Assembly (NCBI RefSeq): GCF_055900595.2
Contig: NZ_CM148325.1
Strand: one strand, 5' to 3'
DNA length: 64,000 bases
The position numbers were made by a program, and so were the translations under genes. The notes beneath the pieces were generated by a model. The model did no database searches and was not told where the DNA came from. It was given only the letters and a program-made list of their open reading frames with translations. Of the stretch, positions 16,422 to 37,089 are shown in pieces. How positions within the stretch are numbered: position 1 is the first letter of the stretch; the number at the start of each line of letters is the position of its first letter.

Positions 16422-18509
16422 ATGCGAGTAACCACTCTGGCTTCAGTAGCCATCCCTTGTCTCGGGTTTTCAGTCAGCAGTATGGCTGCGGAAGATGTGA
16501 TGGTAGTCACGGCGTCTGGCTATGAAAAAAAATTAACCAGTGCAGCTGCGAGTGTTTCAGTGATCAGCCAGGAGGATTTGCGATCCAGCCAGTATCATGA
16601 TCTGGGGGAGGCACTGAGATCCGTAGAGGGGGTGGATGTTGAAAGCGGTACGGGTAAAACAGGTGGGCTGGAAATCAGCATCCGCGGAATGCCTGCCAGT
16701 TATACGCTGATACTGATCGATGGTGTCCGTCAGGGCGGGAGCAGTGACGTAACCCCAAACGGTTATGCTGCCATGAATACGGGTTTTATGCCACCTCTGG
16801 CCGCCATCGAACGTATTGAGATTATCAGGGGCCCCATGTCCACTCTGTACGGCTCTGATGCCATGGGGGGCGTGGTGAATATCATCACCAAAAAGAATGC
16901 AGACAAATGGCGCTCTTCGGTTAATGCCGGGCTGAACCTGCAGGAAAGTAACAAATGGGGGAACAGCAGCCAGTTTAATTTCTGGAGCAGCGGTCCCCTT
17001 GTGGATGATTCACTCAGCCTTCAGGTACGTGGCAGCACACAGCAGCGTCAGGGCTCATCGGTCACATCACTGAGCGACACCTCAGCTACGCGTATCCCTT
17101 ATCCCACGGAATCACAGAATTATAATGCAGGTGGTCGTCTTGACTGGAAAGCGACGGACAAGGATGTACTCTGGATTGATATGGATATCGCCCGGCAGCG
17201 TTATGATAACCGAGATGGCCAGCTGGGCAGTCTGACGGGCGGTTATGATCGCACCCTGCGCTATGAGCGTAATAAAATTTCAGCAGGCTATGATCATACA
17301 TTCACCTTCGGAGCCTGGAAGTCATCCCTGAACTGGAATGAGACGGAAAATAAAGGCCGTCAGCTTGTACGTAGCGTACTGCAGCGTGATAAATGGGGGC
17401 TTGCCGGCCAGCCGAGGGAGCTTAAGGAGTCGAATCTTATCCTGAGCTCATTACTGTTTGCACCTCTGGGGGAATCACACAAGGTTACCGTCGGTGGTGA
17501 GTATCAGAACTCCTCCATGAAAGACGGGGTTGTTCTCGCCAGTACTGGTGAAACCTTCCGTCAGAAAAGCTGGTCGGCATTTGTTGAGGATGAGTGGTAT
17601 ATCACGGATGCATTTGCACTGACTGCGGGTAGCCGCTATGAACGCTATGAGGTGTTCGGAGGACACTTCAGTCCCCGGGCATATATGGTCTGGGATGTGA
17701 CTGATGCGTGGACGCTGAAAGGTGGGGTGACCACGGGATATAAGGCGCCCAGCATGGGGCAGTTACATAAGGGGATCAGCGGTGTGTCCGGTCAGGGGCG
17801 TACGAATCTTCTCGGTAACCCGGACCTGAAGCCGGAGGAGAGTGTCAGTTATGAAGCGGGCGTGTATTACGATAATCATGCCGGTCTGAACGCCAATATC
17901 ACGGGCTTTATGACAGAATTCTCCAACAAGATCGTATCTTATTCCATTGATGATAATACCCGCAGCTACACAAACAGCGGAAAGGCTAGGACTCAGGGCG
18001 TGGAATTTGCCGGCACACTGCCTCTGTTGTCAGAGGATGTGACTCTGTCTCTGAATTATACCTGGACGCAGAGTGAACAACGGGATGGGGATAATAAAGG
18101 TGCACCACTGAGTTACACCCCTGAGCATATGGTGAATGCGAAACTGAACTGGCAGATTACTGAAGAGGTGACATCATGGCTGGGTGCCCGTTACCGCGGG
18201 AAAACGCCACGTTTCACCCAGAATTATTCGTCACTCTCAGCTGTACAGAAGAAAGTGTATGATGAGAAAGGTGAATATCTGAAAGCCTGGACGGTACTGG
18301 ATGCGGGCATGTCGTGGAAAGTGACGGATGCACTGATGCTGAATGCAGCGGTGAATAATGTGCTTAACAAGGATTACAGTGACGTAAGTCTGTATCGTGC
18401 CGGCAGTGGTACGCTTTATGCGGGTGATTACTTCCAGACGGGGGCATCGACAACGGGTTATGTGATACCTGAGAGAAATTACTGGATGTCGCTGAACTAT
18501 CAGTTCTGA
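16422..18509 (+). CDS. iha: TonB-dependent outer-membrane siderophore receptor / adhesin Iha
   Basis: 695-aa ORF with signal peptide, plug domain, beta-barrel and C-terminal aromatic residue; matches remembered Iha N-terminus. Confidence 0.85.
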   Translation: MRVTTLASVAIPCLGFSVSSMAAEDVMVVTASGYEKKLTSAAASVSVISQEDLRSSQYHDLGEALRSVEGVDVESGTGKTGGLEISIRGMPASYTLILIDGVRQGGSSDVTPNGYAAMNTGFMPPLAAIERIEIIRGPMSTLYGSDAMGGVVNIITKKNADKWRSSVNAGLNLQESNKWGNSSQFNFWSSGPLVDDSLSLQVRGSTQQRQGSSVTSLSDTSATRIPYPTESQNYNAGGRLDWKATDKDVLWIDMDIARQRYDNRDGQLGSLTGGYDRTLRYERNKISAGYDHTFTFGAWKSSLNWNETENKGRQLVRSVLQRDKWGLAGQPRELKESNLILSSLLFAPLGESHKVTVGGEYQNSSMKDGVVLASTGETFRQKSWSAFVEDEWYITDAFALTAGSRYERYEVFGGHFSPRAYMVWDVTDAWTLKGGVTTGYKAPSMGQLHKGISGVSGQGRTNLLGNPDLKPEESVSYEAGVYYDNHAGLNANITGFMTEFSNKIVSYSIDDNTRSYTNSGKARTQGVEFAGTLPLLSEDVTLSLNYTWTQSEQRDGDNKGAPLSYTPEHMVNAKLNWQITEEVTSWLGARYRGKTPRFTQNYSSLSAVQKKVYDEKGEYLKAWTVLDAGMSWKVTDALMLNAAVNNVLNKDYSDVSLYRAGSGTLYAGDYFQTGASTTGYVIPERNYWMSLNYQF

Positions 18510-19442: not shown

Positions 19443-19838
19443 ATGTACCGGATTTTCTGTTCCCTGTTTTTCCTGCCGCTGGCAGCGTCTGCCGGCACAA
19501 CAATTTATACCGATTCTCAGCATCTTCCCGTTAATCCTCCTGATGGTGTCAGGGTGGTTCTGCTGGATGCGCCTGAGCAGCTTCAGAGCCGCTTTTGGGG
19601 CCTGTTGCCTGCTGATGCGGGTGAGGCTGAATCGGTGGTCAGGGTACGTATGAAGTCTCCCGAATGGCAGACGATGCAGGCGGAACTGGCCGGTCATTAC
19701 CGCGATGTGGCACATGCCTAGTCGCTGGGCGTGAAGAAATACCCTGCCGTGGTGTTTGATGACAGTGAGGTGGTTTACGGCACCATGGATGTGGTGATGG
19801 CCGGGAAAATCCGTGCTGAGGGAGGAGTGCAGCCATGA
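19443..19838 (+). pseudogene. secreted integrating-conjugative-element-type protein with in-frame amber stop at 19719-19721
   Basis: signal peptide; reading frame continues unchanged after TAG to 19838. Confidence 0.45.
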
Positions 19839-20812
19839 TGTCCCTGAAATGTCGTCTGCGTACCGGCGTGCTGTTACTGAGTGTGGCATCACTGCCCCTG
19901 GCGTCTGTATCACTGAACACCGCCAGCATTATCGCCAGTACTGCGGCACCGGACTATATCAGCTGGCGTGTCAGCGGGATTTGTTACTGGCTTTACTGCA
20001 GCGCGTCTGGCTGTACGGTCAGAATTTCCGTGAAGGTGACACATTTCATCCCGGAAGTGGTTATTTCCACCTATACGGCACCGGGTGGTAATCCCTGGAA
20101 AGAGATGTCGCTGGTCAGCCGGACCGCAGGTGGCCCGGAGAATGCCATCACTGACGGCCTGTCCGGGCTGAGTGCCGGCGGGGGAAATCCGGCGGATATG
20201 AAAATACAGGGGAAGCGCCGTTCAGCAATTCGTTTCAAATACGCAGATGCGCTGGGTCATCCGGCCACACAGCTTATCGGCGGGATGGTACCCGGATTCA
20301 GCTGTGATTCACCGGTGACACCGGCCATGGCCTATTTCCTCAGTACCCTGGACAGCATCGTCTAGCGAACGGGATTACCTGAATCCCTGTATCCAGAGGC
20401 ACAGGTTCCCGGCAAACGCGAGATTGGCAGCTAGGCCGATAAAAACATGTGGGGGAGCGTTTATCACCGGAGTGGTTTTGTGATGCAGAGCGATGATGAC
20501 CGGGCCGCGGCGGTGGGGGCTCAGCGGGTGGCCGACATTATCACGCGGATGGGGGAGTCGCATGTCTACAGGGAGGTTAAGGGCGTGAAACGTGACGGCT
20601 ACTGGCCCCCGGAGGCGGTGGAGGAAAACACCGGCACCCGCAATCACAAATGGCAGCGACTGACGCCGTCAGTGTCGCGTTCCTGTGCCGTTTTCCCGGA
20701 TGGTGAACACCAGGCGGCGGAGAACGGTAATGCAGCCTTTGCACTGTGGCAGCCTTACAGCTGCTTCGAAAAGCGCGGGCAGCGATTCCTTGGCAGTACG
20801 AATTTTTAAGGA
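19835..20812 (+). pseudogene. TraU-like conjugative transfer protein, disrupted
   Basis: signal peptide plus Cys-rich N-terminus; stop at 20365 then continuation in another frame to 20812. Confidence 0.35.
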
Positions 20813-21559: not shown

Positions 21560-21945
21560 AGGTTACGATAAAGCCGACAGTGCAGGATGTGATGTTAGGA
21601 GCGATAGAAAAACGCTTTGGCGATAAAGGACCGGAACGAGCAATCCAGTGGCGGACGGATAACGGTTCGGCTTATACGGCTCATGAAACACGGCAATTCG
21701 CCAGAGAGTTGAATCTGGAGCCCTGCACGACGGCAGTCAGTAGCCCTCAGAGCAATAGAATGGCAGAAAGGTTCGTGAAAACGTGAATGAAGACTACATC
21801 GCGTTCATGCCGAAACTGAATGTAATAACGGCATTGCATAACCTTGCAGAGGCGTTCGAGCATTACAATGAAAACCATCCGCATAGTGCGTTAGGTTATC
21901 TCTCACCACGGGAATATCGACGTCAGCGGATAACGTTAACTTAAG
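21560..21945 (+). pseudogene. DDE (rve-type) transposase C-terminal fragment
   Basis: [25 protein letters not shown] ... [14 protein letters not shown] integrase-core tail with internal stop. Confidence 0.5.
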
Positions 21946-22243
21946 ATACAATAGCAGTCTGATATTGAGGGGGCAAGAACATCCGAACCACACCAGCCTG
22001 TGACTTATACCCTGTCTCTACGACCCAGAGAGTATTATTCTTAATAATCTCATAATATATACACAATAGGAAGTATCTATTAACAAAATAGAGAACATCG
22101 TTTTTACTATCAAATAGTTGCACTGTATTAATATGATTAAACTTTAAAAAAGTTTCAGGCTGATCAGGAGGAGTTATGAAAAAAATAAATATTTTAATTC
22201 TGTGTCTGTTTTCTGGAGCGTCGTGGGCAAGTGACGTAGATAA

Positions 22244-22252
22244 TGTTAAGTG
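22244..22252. repeat. 9-bp target-site duplication TGTTAAGTG, left copy
   Basis: identical 9-mer at 23582-23590 immediately after the IS10 inside end. Confidence 0.9.
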
Positions 22253-23581
22253 CTGATGAATCCCCTAATGATTTTTATCAAAATCATTAAGTTAAGGTAG
22301 ATACACATCTTGTCATATGATCAAATGGTTTCGCCAAAAATCAATAATCAGACAACAAAATGTGCGAACTCGATATTTTACACGACTCTCTTTACCAATT
22401 CTGCCCCGAATTACACTTAAAACGACTCAACAGCTTAACGTTGGCTTGCCACGCCTTACTTGACTGTAAAACTCTCACTCTTACCGAACTTGGCCGTAAC
22501 CTGCCAACCAAAGCGAGAACAAAACATAACATCAAACGAATCGACCGATTGTTAGGTAATCGTCACCTCCACAAAGAGCGACTCGCTGTATACCGTTGGC
22601 ATGCTAGCTTTATCTGTTCGGGCAATACGATGCCCATTGTACTTGTTGACTGGTCTGATATCCGTGAGCAAAAACGGCTTATGGTATTGCGAGCTTCAGT
22701 CGCACTACACGGTCGTTCTGTTACTCTTTATGAGAAAGCGTTCCCGCTTTCAGAGCAATGTTCAAAGAAAGCTCATGACCAATTTCTAGCCGACCTTGCG
22801 AGCATTCTACCGAGTAACACCACACCGCTCATTGTCAGTGATGCTGGCTTTAAAGTGCCATGGTATAAATCCGTTGAGAAGCTGGGTTGGTACTGGTTAA
22901 GTCGAGTAAGAGGAAAAGTACAATATGCAGACCTAGGAGCGGAAAACTGGAAACCTATCAGCAACTTACATGATATGTCATCTAGTCACTCAAAGACTTT
23001 AGGCTATAAGAGGCTGACTAAAAGCAATCCAATCTCATGCCAAATTCTATTGTATAAATCTCGCTCTAAAGGCCGAAAAAATCAGCGCTCGACACGGACT
23101 CATTGTCACCACCCGTCACCTAAAATCTACTCAGCGTCGGCAAAGGAGCCATGGATTCTAGCAACTAACTTACCTGTTGAAATTCGAACACCCAAACAAC
23201 TTGTTAATATCTATTCGAAGCGAATGCAGATTGAAGAAACCTTCCGAGACTTGAAAAGTCCTGCCTACGGACTAGGCCTACGCCATAGCCGAACGAGCAG
23301 CTCAGAGCGTTTTGATATCATGCTGCTAATCGCCCTGATGCTTCAACTAACATGTTGGCTTGCGGGCGTTCATGCTCAGAAACAAGGTTGGGACAAGCAC
23401 TTCCAGGCTAACACAGTCAGAAATCGAAACGTACTCTCAACAGTTCGCTTAGGCATGGAAGTTTTGCGGCATTCTGGCTACACAATAACAAGGGAAGACT
23501 CACTCGTGGCTGCAACCCTGCTTACTCAAAATCTATTCACACATGGTTACGTTTTGGGGAAATTATGAGGGGATCTCTCAG
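22253..23581 (+). mobile_element. IS10, complete
   Basis: 1329 bp; outside end CTGATGAATCCCCTAATGATTTT at 22253, inside end ...GGGGATCTCTCAG at 23581. Confidence 0.95.
22360..23568 (+). CDS. IS10 transposase
   Basis: 402-aa ORF matching remembered IS10 transposase (MCELDILHDSLYQFCPELHLKRLNS...). Confidence 0.95.
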   Translation: MCELDILHDSLYQFCPELHLKRLNSLTLACHALLDCKTLTLTELGRNLPTKARTKHNIKRIDRLLGNRHLHKERLAVYRWHASFICSGNTMPIVLVDWSDIREQKRLMVLRASVALHGRSVTLYEKAFPLSEQCSKKAHDQFLADLASILPSNTTPLIVSDAGFKVPWYKSVEKLGWYWLSRVRGKVQYADLGAENWKPISNLHDMSSSHSKTLGYKRLTKSNPISCQILLYKSRSKGRKNQRSTRTHCHHPSPKIYSASAKEPWILATNLPVEIRTPKQLVNIYSKRMQIEETFRDLKSPAYGLGLRHSRTSSSERFDIMLLIALMLQLTCWLAGVHAQKQGWDKHFQANTVRNRNVLSTVRLGMEVLRHSGYTITREDSLVAATLLTQNLFTHGYVLGKL

Positions 23582-23590
23582 TGTTAAGTG
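23582..23590. repeat. 9-bp target-site duplication TGTTAAGTG, right copy
   Basis: see left copy at 22244-22252. Confidence 0.9.
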
Positions 23591-24174
23591 TATTCGGGTA
23601 GATAGTAAAGACATTGAAAGGTTATTCGATCGCTGGAATGAATCATTAAAAACAGGTGATGCCAAGAAGGTTGCTGATAACTATTTAAGTGATGCGATCT
23701 TACTGCCCACAGTATCAAAAAAAATTAGGATTACAGATGCAGAAAGAGTTGACTATTTTGAGCATTTTTTGAAAAAAAAACCTGTTGGAGAAATAAACTT
23801 CAGAACTATTCGCATTGGATGCAATATGGCTCTTGATACAGGGAATTACACGTTTACTTTTGAAGATAAAAAACAAGTTTCAGCACGCTATAGTTTCGCT
23901 TATGAGTGGGATGGAAAGGATTGGAAAATATCATCCCATCATTCATCTGTAGTGCCAACAACATAATATATTGAGCCTGTTTACCATTCTCTGTTAATGC
24001 CTTCTCTTAAAAGTGACCGTCCAAGCGGTCACTGATTACCCATTCTTAATTCAGTGCAGGATTAAAATATATGTGCAAAATAATTTAATTCAGACAGCTT
24101 TTTATTTCACTATGGCTATCCCAGATATCGACGACGGATGAAAAGTGGCTCTTACGCAACCTGGATGGAGATTT

Positions 24175-24540
24175 TCATGCCAGTGGACTCATGACCCTCT
24201 GTCTGAGTAGTTCAAATCCGGCTCGACCATACATCTGGCCTTTCAGCATTTTTAGTCTATTTACATGACTTTCGACAACCCCCATTATTCCAGCGACTGC
24301 TGATTGCCTCACATATAGCCGCAGCATCAGCTGCCATCCTTGCAGCCACGCGCCGAAGTTACCACTTTCTCGTTGCTCTTTTAACCACTCCCTCCATGGG
24401 GCCAGAAGTCCTCGCTCTGGAGGCCGGGTTGACATTTCAGGGAATGTTCCTGAACACACCCAGAGACTGACTGTCACACGTGATAAGCCTGTAATACGGG
24501 ATACGGCCTGATTGTATCCAATCTGGAAGAAAAGTTTCAT
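24175..24540 (-). CDS. hypothetical HTH protein, possibly transposase-derived
   Basis: HTH-like ITGLSRVTVSLW and C-terminal HVNRLKMLKGQMYGRAGFELLRQRV resembling a transposase tail. Confidence 0.3.
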   Translation of the reverse strand: MKLFFQIGYNQAVSRITGLSRVTVSLWVCSGTFPEMSTRPPERGLLAPWREWLKEQRESGNFGAWLQGWQLMLRLYVRQSAVAGIMGVVESHVNRLKMLKGQMYGRAGFELLRQRVMSPLA

Positions 24541-26301: not shown

Positions 26302-28281
26302 ATGGGCAGACCGTTAAAAACTTTATTCAAACGTGAGCATAGTGAAGAAATCAGTAACCCGAGCGATAACCGCGCGTTTTCGCAGGTGGCGGAAGTCTAT
26401 TTGTCACGCCGCCGTCTGTTACAGGCAGGCACGGTCGCCGGTGCCGCGGCAGCGTTCCCATTTCTGCTGAAACAGGAAAACGCGCTGGCGAAAGTGGTCT
26501 CCAAAGCAAGCGGTAACCTCGGCAAAGCGACGACGCTCGGTTTCACCAGCCTGCCGGTTTCCACGGAAGATACCGTTATCGTGCCGGAAGGATACATCGC
26601 GAAGCCCTTCTACAAATGGGGCGACGCCACCGGGATTGCCGGAAATCTGCCGGTTTTTAAAACCGACGGTAGCAACACCACGGAAGAACAGGCGGCGCAG
26701 GCCGGGATGCACCACGACGGCATGGCGTGGTTTAGCCTGCCGCAGGGCGGGAACAGCTCCGATCACGGCCTGCTTGCCATAAACCATGAATACATCGATA
26801 ACGGTCTACTGTTTAAAGATGGCGATGCCAACTGGAGCGCCGATAAAGCTCTTAAAGGCCAGAACGCGATGGGCGTGTCGGTCATTGAAGTAAAAAAAGT
26901 GCCCCTGGGCTGGGAAGTGGTGCGCCCGTCATCGTTCGCACGCCGCATCACCGTTAACACGCCGATGAAAATCACCGGTCCGGCGCTGCATAACCCACTG
27001 ATGCAAACAGTTGACGATCCGAAAGGCGAAATCATTCTCGGCACCATGCAGAACTGTGCCAACGGATTTACGCCGTGGGGCACCTATCTGACGTGTGAAG
27101 AGAACTGGTCCGATATTTTCGTAAAAAAAGCAGAGATGAACCCGCTGGAAAAACGTTACGGTATCAGCGGGAGCGACGACTCTTACCGCTGGAACGAAGT
27201 GGATAAAAGGTTCAGCGTCGACGCCACGCCGAACGAGCCGAACCGCTTCGGCTGGGTGGTGGAAATCGATCCATACGATCCGCATTCAGTGCCGCGCAAG
27301 CACACCGCGCTTGGTCGCATCAAACACGAAGGCGCAGCGGTGACAATTGCCCCGGATAACCGCGTTGTGGTCTATATGGGCGATGACCAGAAATTCGAAT
27401 ACATATATAAATTTGTCTCGGAAGGAAAATTCAACCCGCAGGATCGCAAAGCCAACATGCACCTGCTGGAAAAAGGCACTCTGTACGTGGCGAAATTTAA
27501 CGACGACGGCAAAGGCGAGTGGCTACCGCTGGTGTTCGGACAAAATGGGCTCGACGCCAGTAAAGGGTTTGAAAACCAGGGCGACCTGTTGATTAAAACC
27601 CGTCTGGCGGCAGACGCCGTGGGGGCCACTAAAATGGACCGCCCGGAGTGGATTGCGGTCGATCCATATCACGCCGGCAGCGTTTACTGCACGCTCACCA
27701 ACAACAGCGATCGCGGTAAGGAAGGAAAAGCGCCAGTGGATGCGGCCAACCCGCGCGCCAAAAACGTTTACGGCCACATCATTCACTGGTTGGAGCATAA
27801 CGGTGACCCGACCGCGCTGCAGTTTGCCTGGGATATTCTTGTGATGGGCGGTCGCACCGATACAGACAAACTGGAAACCAAAGGCAGCATGAAGGGTGCG
27901 GAATTCGGCAGCGCCGATGGCCTGAGCTTTGATCACCGCGGCGTGCTATGGATCCAGACCGACGTGTCGTCATCAACCATAAATATTAAAGATTACAAAG
28001 GCATGGGCAACAACCAGATGGTGGCGACGATTCCCGGTACCAATGAGTTCCGCCGCTTCCTGACCGGCCCGCGCGGCTGCGAAATCACCGGCATCGCGTT
28101 CACTCCGGATAACCGGACGCTGTTTATTAACATCCAGCACCCTGGCGAGCCAAGCGAAGGGCTTAGCGATCCGCAGCATCCGACGGCAGTATCAAGCTGG
28201 CCTGACGGCGATAAGGCTGGTCGTCCGCGCTCCTCAACTGTCGTTATCGTAAAAGCCGACGGCGGCATAATCGGCACCTGA
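26302..28281 (+). CDS. PhoX-family (DUF839) Tat-secreted phosphatase-like protein
   Basis: 659-aa ORF with twin-arginine signal SRRRLLQAGTVAGAAAAFP and beta-propeller-like repeats. Confidence 0.55.
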   Translation: MGRPLKTLFKREHSEEISNPSDNRAFSQVAEVYLSRRRLLQAGTVAGAAAAFPFLLKQENALAKVVSKASGNLGKATTLGFTSLPVSTEDTVIVPEGYIAKPFYKWGDATGIAGNLPVFKTDGSNTTEEQAAQAGMHHDGMAWFSLPQGGNSSDHGLLAINHEYIDNGLLFKDGDANWSADKALKGQNAMGVSVIEVKKVPLGWEVVRPSSFARRITVNTPMKITGPALHNPLMQTVDDPKGEIILGTMQNCANGFTPWGTYLTCEENWSDIFVKKAEMNPLEKRYGISGSDDSYRWNEVDKRFSVDATPNEPNRFGWVVEIDPYDPHSVPRKHTALGRIKHEGAAVTIAPDNRVVVYMGDDQKFEYIYKFVSEGKFNPQDRKANMHLLEKGTLYVAKFNDDGKGEWLPLVFGQNGLDASKGFENQGDLLIKTRLAADAVGATKMDRPEWIAVDPYHAGSVYCTLTNNSDRGKEGKAPVDAANPRAKNVYGHIIHWLEHNGDPTALQFAWDILVMGGRTDTDKLETKGSMKGAEFGSADGLSFDHRGVLWIQTDVSSSTINIKDYKGMGNNQMVATIPGTNEFRRFLTGPRGCEITGIAFTPDNRTLFINIQHPGEPSEGLSDPQHPTAVSSWPDGDKAGRPRSSTVVIVKADGGIIGT

Positions 28282-35314: not shown

Positions 35315-36157
35315 ATGTTGAATGCAAGACATCTTCCCGTACTGATGTACCATCATGTCAGTCGCTGTCCGGGGCTTGTGACACTTTCACCTGAAATATT
35401 TTGTGAACAGATAGAGTGGCTCGCAAAAAATAACTGGCGGACAGTAACATCCGCTGAACTTTAATATTTTTATCAGGGGGGAATGCTTCCAAGAAAGAGC
35501 TTCATGATTACATTCGATGACGGATATCTTGATAACTGGTTCCGGGCATGGCCGGTACTGAAGGAATACAATCTTCATACGCATATTTTTCTCATTACAG
35601 GGTTGATTGGTGACGGGAAGGTGCGTTACAGACAGAAACGGGAATATTCGCATCGCGACTGTGAGCAGTTGATTGCAGATAACCGTTCCGATGAAGTGAT
35701 GCTTCGCTGGTCTGAAGTCCGGGAAATGCGTGATTCCGGTCTTGTTGAATTCCATTTACATACCCATTCACATAAACGCTGGGACAGACTGTCTGTACCA
35801 CGTACTGAGCAGTGCCGACTCATGGAAGAAGCTATTATGACAGGCAAACAATGTCTGAAGGAAAAACTGGGATACTGTAGTCCCCATCTATGCTGGCCTG
35901 CAGGATATTATAGCAGAGATTATATTAATCTCACCAGAGAACTTGGTTTATCTTATTTATATACAACGGAAAGAAGAATGAACTGCCCTGTAAAAGGTTC
36001 ATTACTTATAGGACGTATTAGTACAAAAGAACGGGAATATTGCGGTTGGCTGAAACGGTGCCTTTTTATTATATCACGCCATTTTTCTCTTCATTACTGG
36101 CTCTTCATAAGGGGCCAAGATTACCAGAGAATTAATAATGAAGATTTTATTCACTGA
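35315..36157 (+). pseudogene. polysaccharide deacetylase (NodB-domain) with in-frame TAA at 35462-35464
   Basis: LPVLMYHHVS and ITFDDGY motifs in the same frame, separated by a single stop codon. Confidence 0.6.
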
Positions 36158-37080
36158 GTCTTCACCAGATATTGGTGGCCAGGAGTTACAGGCTCTGGCA
36201 CAGATGACAGCGCTCCAGAAACAGGGGCATTCTGTTTTACTCGCCTGCAGGGAAAAAAGTAAAATAGCTCATGAAGCCAGAACAATCGGACATGATGTTA
36301 CTTTTATTCCTTTCAGGAACAGTCTTCACCTTCCTTCCATCATCAGACTGCGGCAGGTAATCCGGTAATTCAGACCTGATCTGGTAATCTGCCACAGTGG
36401 TCATGACAGTAACATTGCAGGCCTGAGCCGTCTGATATGCTGGCATCGTTTCTGTATTACACAGAGAAGTCAGGCAACAGTTACCTCCGCATATTCAGGG
36501 ATGGACAGAATCAGCGGGCAATATCCCGCTGATTGTCCAGGTGGGTATGTTGCGTCCCGAGAAAGGGCATGAATTTATGCTCCGGGTGTTGCACCAACTG
36601 AAGATGGAAGGGAAAGTATTTCGATGGCTCGTGGTGGGCGCTGGTCGTGAGGAATACGAAGAACGCCTTCGCCTGCAGATTGAATCACTGGGAATGAGTG
36701 GTGATGTTTTCATGGCTGGTGCTGTTTTCCCGGCGTTACCGATATACCGGGTTGCCAGTGTGCTATCATGCCTTCTGAAAAATGAGGCATTTGGCATGGT
36801 CCTGGCTGAAGCGTCAGCCTCCGGTGTTCCCGTTATTGCCAGTGAGACTGGCGGGATCCCGGATGCCATTCAGAAAAATGTGACAGGAACACTTTTACCT
36901 GTGGGAGATATGACTGCATGGACCAGTGCGCTTCGGGATTTTTTGTCCCGCCCGGAACGCTTCAGGATGATGGTTGCCAGCGCCAGAGAAGATATCGAAT
37001 ACCGGTTTAATATCAACAGAACGGTACAGACCATTGTGTCTCTGGCTCATCAGACCGGGGGAAACGCAACAGGTAACTGA
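36138..37080 (+). pseudogene. GT4-family glycosyltransferase, disrupted (TAA at 36366, internal deletion, frameshift)
   Basis: N-terminal MKILFTESSPDIGGQE; C-terminal RPEKGHEFMLRV and E-x7-E-like region; intervening segment too short and out of frame. Confidence 0.6.
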
Positions 37081-37089
37081 GGAACTCAT

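What the first reader, a model, noticed from the sequence alone, without database searches (positions are those of the whole stretch)
22176..23966. Complete IS10 with perfect 9-bp target duplication splitting a secreted NTF2-like gene
Directly visible: a 1329-bp IS10 (22253-23581) is flanked by identical TGTTAAGTG repeats (22244-22252 and 23582-23590). Removing the IS and one repeat restores an uninterrupted 150-codon ORF with a good RBS, signal peptide and DUF4440/SnoaL-like C-terminus ending HHSS. Intact duplications and undamaged flanking frame indicate a recent insertion, unlike the surrounding decayed IS fragments.
Basis: seen in the sequence. Interest (0 to 1): 0.5.

Follow-up and report, generated by a model that had tools for sequence, protein, structure and literature searches.

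The report
IS10 insertion splitting NTF2-like gene
A complete, intact IS10 jumping gene has recently landed in a small exported protein gene of unknown function on an E. coli genomic island; this is an ordinary, well-understood kind of gene knockout.

Summary
A 1329-bp IS10 (22253-23581) is flanked by identical 9-bp repeats, TGTTAAGTG. Removing the IS and one repeat restores a 150-codon ORF.

The restored sequence, with flanks (1063 nt), matches at 100% in at least 20 complete E. coli chromosomes; 48 carry the locus. There it is annotated as an intact "SgcJ/EcaC family oxidoreductase" (WP_029400372.1). None of the 5426 complete genomes has the occupied site.

The IS is identical at 1329/1329 bases to IS10-Left of Tn10 on plasmid R100. 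It has 15 mismatches to IS10-Right. It carries an intact 402-aa DDE transposase, RNA-OUT and both Dam sites.

The gene encodes an NTF2-like protein (Pfam CaMKII_AD, SnoaL_3, DUF4440; PDB 3H51, E=1e-30). It has a signal-peptide-like N-terminus and no known function. It lies in an IS-riddled island carrying iha, inserted between ynjB and ynjA.

Extras:
- The same junction occurs in four draft assemblies, with L-type or R-type IS10 and different flank SNPs, which suggests a recurrent hotspot.
- The supposedly defective IS10-Left type is multicopy in wild E. coli.

Verdict: a real, recent, textbook IS10 insertion. Already known kind; low interest.

The parts
22166..22171 (+). Shine-Dalgarno AGGAGG of the interrupted gene, 4 nt upstream of the ATG
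   Evidence: Read directly from the sequence.
22176..22252 (+). 5' fragment of the SgcJ/EcaC-family (NTF2-like) gene: codons 1-25 plus 2 nt. It holds the signal-peptide-like segment MKKINILILCLFSGASWA|SD. In the occupied allele it terminates as a 26-aa peptide (…NVKC*) at a TGA formed just inside the IS.
   Evidence: The intact gene is annotated WP_029400372.1 in empty-site genomes.
22244..22252 (.). Left copy of the 9-bp target-site duplication TGTTAAGTG
   Evidence: family D11, spacing 1338. It matches the IS10 target consensus NGCTNAGCN at 4 of 6 specified positions.
22253..23581 (+). Complete IS10, 1329 bp, IS10-Left sequence type. The outside end is at 22253 and the inside end at 23581.
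   Evidence: 1329/1329 identity to R100 (NC_002134) 36132-37460, the copy next to gltS/jemA. There are 15 mismatches to the tetD-proximal copy, IS10-Right. The gene order jemA…tetD-IS10-right comes from PMC5571418.
22253..22275 (+). Outside-end terminal inverted repeat (17/23 match with the inside end)
   Evidence: alignment of the two ends. It is unique in the window.
22298..22367 (-). RNA-OUT antisense RNA gene, which represses transposase translation
   Evidence: Rfam RF00240: 97.3 bits against a gathering score of 41, full length 1-70.
22360..23568 (+). IS10 transposase, 402 aa, intact. DDE residues D97, D161 and E292 and the Y285/R288/K299 motif are all present.
   Evidence: NCBIfam NF033591: 402 bits against a cut-off of 152. 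Pfam DDE_Tnp_1 E=1.5e-24.
23559..23581 (-). Inside-end terminal inverted repeat, including the Dam site GATC at 23572-23575
   Evidence: GATC at IS positions 67 and 1320.
23582..23590 (.). Right copy of the 9-bp target-site duplication TGTTAAGTG
23591..23966 (+). 3' fragment of the NTF2-like gene: last base of codon 26 through the stop. It contains the whole NTF2-like domain.
   Evidence: PDB 3H51 aligns to residues 30-149.
23565..23966 (+). Chimeric 133-aa ORF. An ATG inside the IS10 inside end overlaps the transposase stop (ATGA). It reads out in frame into the 3' gene fragment (MRGSLSVKC-IRVD…) and lacks a signal peptide. NCBI annotates it in draft genomes as an 'SgcJ/EcaC family oxidoreductase'.
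   Evidence: P0002. Whether it is expressed was not shown.

Best explanation
A single copy of IS10 (IS4 family, IS10-Left sequence type) transposed into codon 26 of a 150-codon gene. The gene encodes an exported NTF2-like protein (SgcJ/EcaC / CaMKII_AD family) on an iha-bearing, IS-riddled genomic island of an E. coli chromosome.

**Mechanism (established knowledge of IS10/Tn10).** The DDE transposase excises the element by double-strand breaks and joins its 3' ends to the target with a 9-bp stagger. Repair of the stagger produces the TGTTAAGTG duplication.

**Shown here:**
- the element is complete;
- the duplication is perfect;
- the empty site exists exactly as predicted;
- the flanks and the IS carry no post-insertion change, so the event is recent.

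**Consequence (inferred).** The gene is knocked out. The 5' part now encodes only a 26-aa peptide (a signal peptide plus 7 residues). The domain-encoding 3' part has lost its promoter, RBS and export signal. At most it could be made as a cytoplasmic 133-aa fusion, from the ATG in the IS end and the outward promoters reported at that end.

**Selection (inferred).** The gene looks dispensable. Other strains carry a poly-A frameshift, an IS2 insertion and a further break in it.

**Recurrence (inferred, about 60%).** The same 9-bp site has probably been hit more than once in nature.
For: **Anatomy**
- coordinates, the 1329-bp element, identical 9-mers, and a 453-nt restored ORF.
- intact IS4-family DDE transposase (NF033591, 402 bits; D97/D161/E292).
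- RNA-OUT at 97 bits.
- 100% identity to IS10-Left of Tn10 in R100.

**Empty site**
- 100% identity over 100% of the reconstruct in at least 20 complete chromosomes (48 carry the locus), with an intact CDS, WP_029400372.1.
- collinearity with strain SCU-115, with the 9-mer shared between the two blocks.
- 37 genomes carry the 24-kb region at about 100% identity, minus only the IS and one repeat.

**Rarity and recency**
- no complete genome has the occupied site.
- the fusion ORF is on 5 contigs; the intact protein is on at least 999.

**Not an assembly artefact**
- the same junction appears in four independent NCBI assemblies. One 14.7-kb contig spans the whole IS without gaps.

**Target preference**
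- 4/6 match to NGCTNAGCN, the best level available anywhere in the gene (7 of 445 positions). The consensus is cited from PMC4574204 and PMC10294622.

**Recurrence**
- occupied alleles carry L-type, R-type or mixed IS10 sequence and sit on at least four flank haplotypes. Two of those haplotypes also exist as empty sites.

**Dispensability**
- other disrupted alleles of the same gene.
Against: Nothing contradicts the insertion itself. The weak points are these:
- The target matches the classical consensus at only 4 of 6 positions.
- IS10-Left transposase is reported to be inactive or weak (PMC11148124 and PMC5571418). The source of transposase, whether the element's own or another copy in trans, is therefore unknown, and only this 64-kb window of the genome is available.
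- Recurrence is not proven. All occupied alleles found are in one orientation, although the search was biased towards that orientation. The opposite-orientation fusion ORFs were not found. Mixed L/R patterns could come from IS-IS gene conversion or from short-read repeat collapse.
- The signal peptide was judged by eye only.
- No expression data exist.
Confidence: 0.95

Rival explanations
1. There was one ancestral IS10 insertion at this site, not a hotspot. The differences among occupied alleles (L-type, R-type or mixed IS sequence; flank SNPs) arose later. Possible causes are gene conversion between IS10 copies, homologous recombination of the island, or repeat collapse in short-read assemblies.
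For: - All five occupied alleles have the same orientation.
- Opposite-orientation fusion ORFs are absent from the protein collection.
- L004 has a patchwork IS, R-type at positions 24-47 and L-type from position 83 onwards, which looks like a conversion tract.
- L005-L007 are contigs of 0.7-1.4 kb that end inside the repeat.
Against: - Occupied or broken alleles lie on at least four flank haplotypes within 1.1 kb. Two of these also occur as empty sites. A single origin would need several recombination events very close to the IS.
- The look-up could only detect one orientation reliably.
- IS10 is known for strong site preference.
Confidence: 0.35
2. The IS is one arm of a composite transposon (Tn10 or a Tn10-like unit), or it was placed here by recombination between IS10 copies rather than by simple transposition.
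For: The element is identical to the IS10-Left arm of Tn10. That arm is described as transposition-defective on its own.
Against: - Each IS10 end occurs only once in the 64-kb window.
- No tet or jem genes are nearby.
- The same 9-bp duplication flanks this single copy. That is the signature of simple insertion and would not be produced by IS-IS recombination.
- The empty site differs from the occupied one by exactly IS + 9 bp.
- L-type copies are multicopy in many wild genomes.
Confidence: 0.02
3. Assembly artefact: an IS10 copy was wrongly placed into this gene by the assembler.
For: IS elements are common sources of mis-joins.
Against: - A mis-join would not create a 9-bp duplication of unique target sequence flush with both IS ends.
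- Four independent public assemblies show the same junction.
Confidence: 0.01
4. The insertion is adaptive rather than neutral. IS10's inside-end outward promoters (pIII/OUTIIp) and the in-frame ATG would produce a cytoplasmic, signal-less NTF2-like protein, or loss of the exported protein is itself selected. Either would explain why the same site recurs.
For: - The IS-borne ATG (23565) is in frame with the domain. It overlaps the transposase stop (ATGA) and gives a 133-aa ORF.
- Outward promoter activity from IS10 ends is reported (PMC4574204 and PMC11481808).
- The gene is disrupted in several independent ways in other strains.
Against: - An in-frame read-out has a one-in-three chance.
- There is no good Shine-Dalgarno before the ATG.
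- The promoter scan found no more sites than in shuffled sequence.
- Multiple kinds of disruption in a decaying island fit neutral loss.
- The allele is rare.
Confidence: 0.05

Closest known systems
IS10-Left of transposon Tn10 (IS4 family, IS10 group; named 'ISVsa5 family' by NCBI PGAP)
   Same: Identical at all 1329 bases to the IS10 copy next to gltS/jemA in Tn10 of plasmid R100. It has the same terminal repeats, a 402-aa DDE transposase, RNA-OUT, Dam sites and a 9-bp duplication.
   Different: Here it is a solitary chromosomal copy, not an arm of Tn10. There is no second IS10 or tet genes in 64 kb.
IS10-Right (the active arm of Tn10; GenBank J01829)
   Same: 98.9% identical, with the same length, ends and organisation.
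   Different: There are 15 substitutions. Six lie in the first 107 bp, which hold the pIN/pOUT and RNA-IN/RNA-OUT region. Four change the transposase (I266V, S381L, T389A, V398A, written window to IS10R).
Known IS10 insertion hotspots (consensus NGCTNAGCN; e.g. the pSU8 cat-promoter site and the pB1000 site)
   Same: Repeated insertion at exactly the same nucleotide with a 9-bp duplication (PMC4574204 and PMC10294622). Here the same junction occurs on several haplotypes with different IS10 variants.
   Different: TGTTAAGTG matches only 4 of 6 consensus positions. Independence of the events is inferred, not demonstrated.
PDB 3H51, 'putative calcium/calmodulin dependent protein kinase II association domain' (structural-genomics NTF2-like protein); NCBIfam TIGR02246 SgcJ/EcaC family
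   Same: The reconstructed protein aligns to 3H51 over residues 30-149 (E=1e-30). It passes the TIGR02246 and Pfam CaMKII_AD, SnoaL_3 and DUF4440 thresholds.
   Different: The E. coli protein has an N-terminal signal-peptide-like extension. No biochemical function is known for either protein. The 'oxidoreductase' label is a family name, not a tested activity.

Membership tests
IS10 (IS4 family) | Length of 1329 bp with imperfect terminal inverted repeats of about 23 bp (CTGATGAATCCCC… / CTGAGAGATCCCC…) | tested here: met
   1329 bp, ends match 17/23; each end is found once, at the expected coordinates.
IS10 (IS4 family) | Near-identity to a reference IS10 sequence | tested here: met
   1329/1329 to the Tn10 IS10-Left copy in R100 (NC_002134) and 1314/1329 to IS10-Right.
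IS10 (IS4 family) | Single intact DDE transposase of 402 aa with the catalytic residues D97, D161, E292 and the YREK motif | tested here: met
   NF033591 scores 402 bits against a cut-off of 152, and all residues are present.
IS10 (IS4 family) | 9-bp direct target-site duplication | tested here: met
   TGTTAAGTG on both sides; the empty site carries one copy.
IS10 (IS4 family) | Antisense regulator RNA-OUT at the outside end | tested here: met
   RF00240, 97.3 bits, full length.
IS10 (IS4 family) | Insertion at a site resembling NGCTNAGCN | tested here: inconclusive
   4 of 6 specified positions match. About 3.7% of window positions do as well, and this is the best level available within the gene. 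The relaxed consensus NPuCNNNGPyN matches at 3 of 4 positions.
IS10 (IS4 family) | Transposition activity of this copy | not testable with these tools
   Indirect evidence only: a perfect duplication, an intact ORF, and L-type copies at up to 44 places per wild genome.
Tn10 composite transposon | Two inverted IS10 copies flanking tetR/tetA/tetCD and jemABC | tested here: not met
   there is one IS10 in 64 kb and no tet or jem genes.
NTF2-like superfamily (SgcJ/EcaC TIGR02246; Pfam CaMKII_AD / SnoaL_3 / DUF4440) | Profile match above the curated cut-off | tested here: met
   Scores against cut-offs: TIGR02246 42.8 vs 33.95; CaMKII_AD 49.7 vs 22.1; SnoaL_3 32.5 vs 22; DUF4440 25.2 vs 25.2. PDB 3H51 matches at E=1e-30.
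   Inspection only: K2 and K3, a hydrophobic core I4-A15, and S16-W17-A18|S19 fitting the -3/-1 rule. There is no lipobox. No signal-peptide predictor was available.
NTF2-like superfamily (SgcJ/EcaC TIGR02246; Pfam CaMKII_AD / SnoaL_3 / DUF4440) | Oxidoreductase or any other defined activity | not testable with these tools
   The name comes from the family label. The closest solved structure is an uncharacterised structural-genomics entry.

The most novel reading that the evidence does not exclude
TGTTAAGTG in this gene is a natural IS10 hotspot. Both IS10-Left-type and IS10-Right-type elements have hit it independently in several wild E. coli lineages. The IS10-Left sequence type, treated in the textbook literature as the defective arm of Tn10, is an autonomous element that is actively spreading in natural E. 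coli populations.
Probability: 0.45. Interest if true: 0.25.

Novelty: already known. Interest (0 to 1): 0.1.

Why it matters
It matters little beyond correct annotation.

- The interrupted gene should be marked as a pseudogene. The 133-aa chimeric ORF that starts inside IS10 is at present deposited in public databases as an 'SgcJ/EcaC family oxidoreductase'.
- The insertion is a clean, recent strain marker for this lineage.
- The side observations are small corrections to common assumptions, not new biology. These are recurrent occupation of one 9-bp site, and IS10-Left-type copies present in 603 of 5426 complete E. coli genomes at up to 44 copies each.

Tried and rejected
- **Occupied site in complete genomes.** Searching 5426 complete E. 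coli genomes found only IS10 copies elsewhere; best coverage was 82%.
- **Plasmid origin.** Only a 173-bp IS-related flank matches plasmids.
- **Opposite-orientation insertion.** Four predicted fusion ORFs (L-type and R-type, two start codons each) are absent from the 15-billion-protein collection. This is not conclusive, because partial ORFs at contig edges would escape an exact look-up.
- **Contigs L008-L013.** They begin inside the 9-mer (TAAGTG…/AAGTG…), which suggests an IS at the same place in six more assemblies. The IS cannot be identified, and an IS5-type TTAA insertion is not excluded.
- **Promoter and terminator scan of 21900-24300.** No more sites than in shuffled sequence. It therefore says nothing about the gene's own promoter or read-out from the IS.
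- **tRNA search for the island's integration site.** None in the window.
- **Original IS10 papers.** Halling et al. 1982 and Martinez-Garcia et al. 2003 are not held in the library. Statements about IS10-Left activity and outward promoters rest on secondary citations.
- **Not run.** I did not run the large homologue searches or structure prediction. PDB 3H51 and three profile libraries already place the protein, and its function does not bear on the finding.
Full report
**1. The observation**

The sequence at 22000-24200 and a script confirm every coordinate in the finding.
- A 1329-bp element runs from 22253 (CTGATGAATCCCC…) to 23581 (…GGGGATCTCTCAG).
- Its ends are imperfect inverted repeats, matching at 17 of 23 positions.
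- The nine bases TGTTAAGTG lie immediately outside both ends, at 22244-22252 and 23582-23590.
- Joining 22176-22252 to 23591-23966 gives a 453-nt reading frame of 150 codons with no internal stop: MKKINILILCLFSGASWASDVDNVKCIRVD…HHSSVVPTT.
- AGGAGG lies 4 nt before the ATG.

Nine-base repeats as such are not rare in this AT-rich stretch; one search lists 14 chance families in 2.3 kb. What matters is the position, flush with both IS termini with spacing 1338 = 1329 + 9, and the test in section 2.

**2. The empty site exists**

- The in-silico excised sequence with flanks (1063 nt) matches at 100% identity over 100% of its length in at least 20 complete E. coli chromosomes; 48 cover at least 80% of it. 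The ORF there is annotated as an intact CDS, WP_029400372.1, 'SgcJ/EcaC family oxidoreductase'.
- The window is collinear with strain SCU-115 from 1 to 22252 and from 23582 to 49001. The two alignment blocks overlap on that strain's single 9-mer.
- Thirty-seven complete genomes carry window 12000-36000 at about 100% identity over 94% of its length. The missing 6% is the IS plus one repeat.
- No complete genome out of 5426 carries the occupied site.

**3. What the element is**

- The 402-aa ORF (22360-23568) scores 402 bits on NCBIfam NF033591, an IS4-family transposase model with a cut-off of 152. It also matches Pfam DDE_Tnp_1.
- D97, D161 and E292 and the Y285/R288/K299 motif are all present.
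- Rfam finds a full-length RNA-OUT at 22298-22367 on the minus strand, at 97 bits.
- The two Dam sites, at IS positions 67 and 1320, are present.
- The element is identical at 1329/1329 bases to the Tn10 copy next to gltS/jemA in plasmid R100. It differs at 15 positions from the copy next to tetD.
[quoted passage not shown] The window element is therefore the IS10-Left sequence type.
- Six of the 15 differences lie in the first 107 bp. Four change the transposase: I266V, S381L, T389A and V398A.
- NCBI's pipeline labels both arms of Tn10 'ISVsa5 family', so that label is only a naming difference.
- There is no second IS10 end in the 64-kb window, and no tet genes. This is a solitary insertion, not Tn10.

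**4. How it got there and what it does**

By established knowledge of IS10/Tn10, the transposase cuts the element out and inserts it with a 9-bp staggered cut. Repair of the stagger duplicates the target.

The classical target consensus is NGCTNAGCN, as cited in PMC4574204 and PMC10294622. TGTTAAGTG matches 4 of the 6 specified positions. That is the best level available anywhere in the gene: 7 of 445 positions reach it.

The insertion lies in codon 26, seven residues after the likely signal-peptidase site (SWA|SD, judged by eye). Its effects are as follows:
- The 5' fragment now ends as a 26-aa peptide.
- The 3' fragment, which holds the whole NTF2-like domain, has lost its promoter, RBS and export signal.
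- An ATG inside the IS end (23565) overlaps the transposase stop and happens to be in frame. It gives a 133-aa chimeric ORF.
- That chimeric ORF is deposited in NCBI as a family member.
- Outward promoters at IS10 ends are reported, but expression here is untested.

Recency is supported by three observations:
- The flanks show no difference from empty alleles.
- The IS shows no difference from a reference copy.
- The occupied allele is rare: the fusion ORF is on 5 contigs, against at least 999 contigs with the intact protein.

**5. The interrupted gene**

- Pfam matches are CaMKII_AD (E=5e-13), SnoaL_3 (1e-7) and DUF4440 (2e-5, exactly at its cut-off).
- NCBIfam TIGR02246 (SgcJ/EcaC) scores 42.8 bits against a cut-off of 33.95.
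- PDB 3H51, an uncharacterised structural-genomics NTF2-like protein, aligns over residues 30-149 at E=1e-30.
- No function is known, and 'oxidoreductase' is only a family label.
- Other E. coli carry different lesions in the same gene:
  - a -1 frameshift in the A9 run at 23772-23780 (93-aa product, on 90 contigs);
  - an IS2 end fused at about codon 19;
  - a break after codon 66 in strain SMS-3-5.
- The gene therefore looks dispensable and is decaying along with its island.

**6. Context**

- The gene lies in an island full of transposase pseudogenes. The island also holds iha (16422-18509), pseudogenised ICE genes and PhoX (26302-28281).
- The island ends with a tyrosine integrase (37631-38848, minus strand) next to ynjA.
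- The island is nearly identical to that of strain SCU-115, at 0-2 mismatches per kb. The adjoining core differs at 34-84 mismatches per kb.
- The core part of the window is 100% identical to only eight complete genomes. One of these that was inspected, E400634, has no island, and ynjB abuts ynjA. The island was therefore acquired horizontally by this lineage.

**7. Recurrence at the same site**

An exact look-up of the 133-aa chimeric ORF found four NCBI draft assemblies with the same inside-end junction. One 14.7-kb contig spans the whole IS and both junctions without gaps. The alleles are not the same:

| Locus | IS10 sequence type | Right-flank SNPs vs window |
|---|---|---|
| Window | L-type throughout | (reference) |
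| L004 | R-type at positions 24-47, L-type from position 83 onwards | none |
| L005 | R-type at inside-end positions 903-1300 | 24202, 24258, 24401 |
| L006 | L-type at the inside end | 24202 |
| L007 | R-type at inside-end positions 1268-1300 | 24116, 24202 |

Two of the flank haplotypes also occur as empty sites. Six further contigs start inside the 9-mer, but the IS responsible cannot be identified.

- I favour independent insertions at a hotspot, at about 60%.
- The alternative is one ancestral insertion followed by IS-IS conversion and flank recombination.
- Same-orientation bias and the negative opposite-orientation look-up keep the alternative alive.

**8. IS10-Left in the wild**

Secondary sources call the IS10-Left transposase inactive. 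However, IS10L insertions have been seen in a laboratory strain. In complete E. coli genomes the two inside-end signatures (IS positions 1240-1300) are distributed as follows:

| Signature | Genomes (of 5426) | Places | Maximum per genome |
|---|---|---|---|
| L-type | 603 | 2014 | 44 |
| R-type | 776 | 2983 | 42 |

So L-type copies are clearly multicopy in nature.

**9. Verdict**

This is a textbook, recent IS10 insertion that knocks out a small accessory gene of unknown function. The kind is already known and the interest is low. The hotspot and IS10-Left points are minor footnotes.

Noticed in passing
window 1-38900 (island) versus 39000-64000 (core): The iha island is 0-2 mismatches per kb from that of strain SCU-115, while the adjacent core (ynjA…astE) differs by 34-84 per kb. 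The core is 100% identical to only 8 complete genomes. One of these, E400634 (Kenya, stool), was inspected and lacks the island, with ynjB directly next to ynjA. The island was therefore acquired horizontally at the ynjB/ynjA junction. There is no tRNA in the window. The integrase lies at 37631-38848 on the minus strand.
   Followed up: partly
window 23772-23780: There is an A9 homopolymer inside the NTF2-like gene. A -1 frameshift allele (93-aa product P0004, …FLKKNLLEK) is present on 90 contigs of the public collection, including a 4.9-Mb one. It may be slipped-strand decay or homopolymer sequencing error.
   Followed up: no
L014-L017 (about window 22229-22233); P0010/P0014 (codon 66): Other strains carry an IS2-like end (…TGGAAATATAGGGGCAAATCCA) fused at about codon 19 of the same gene. 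Strain SMS-3-5 has the gene broken after codon 66. This small gene is hit repeatedly.
   Followed up: partly
L004-L007 versus window 22253-23581: The same 9-bp site is occupied in four NCBI draft assemblies, but with L-type, R-type or mosaic IS10 sequence and different flank SNPs. Six more assemblies have contigs that begin inside the 9-mer (L008-L013). This may be a natural IS10 hotspot.
   Followed up: partly
window 23492-23552 (IS10 positions 1240-1300): The IS10-Left-type signature occurs in 603 of 5426 complete E. coli genomes at 2014 places, up to 44 per genome. The IS10-Right-type signature occurs in 776 genomes at 2983 places. The arm of Tn10 reported as 'inactive' is multicopy in wild strains.
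   Followed up: partly
window 23565-23966: The chimeric ORF starts at an ATG inside the IS10 end. It is deposited in NCBI and UniRef as an 'SgcJ/EcaC family oxidoreductase' (P0002; for example MCV7823881.1, UPI000BE7DD83). This is an annotation artefact of IS insertion.
   Followed up: yes
window 16422-18509; 19446-20812; 26302-28281: The siderophore receptor/adhesin gene iha and a PhoX-family phosphatase gene are intact. They sit among pseudogenised ICE genes (TIGR03757/TIGR03756) and many degraded IS3, IS110, IS66, IS630 and IS21 transposase genes. Coordinates were mapped from strains XDL and SCU-115.
   Followed up: no
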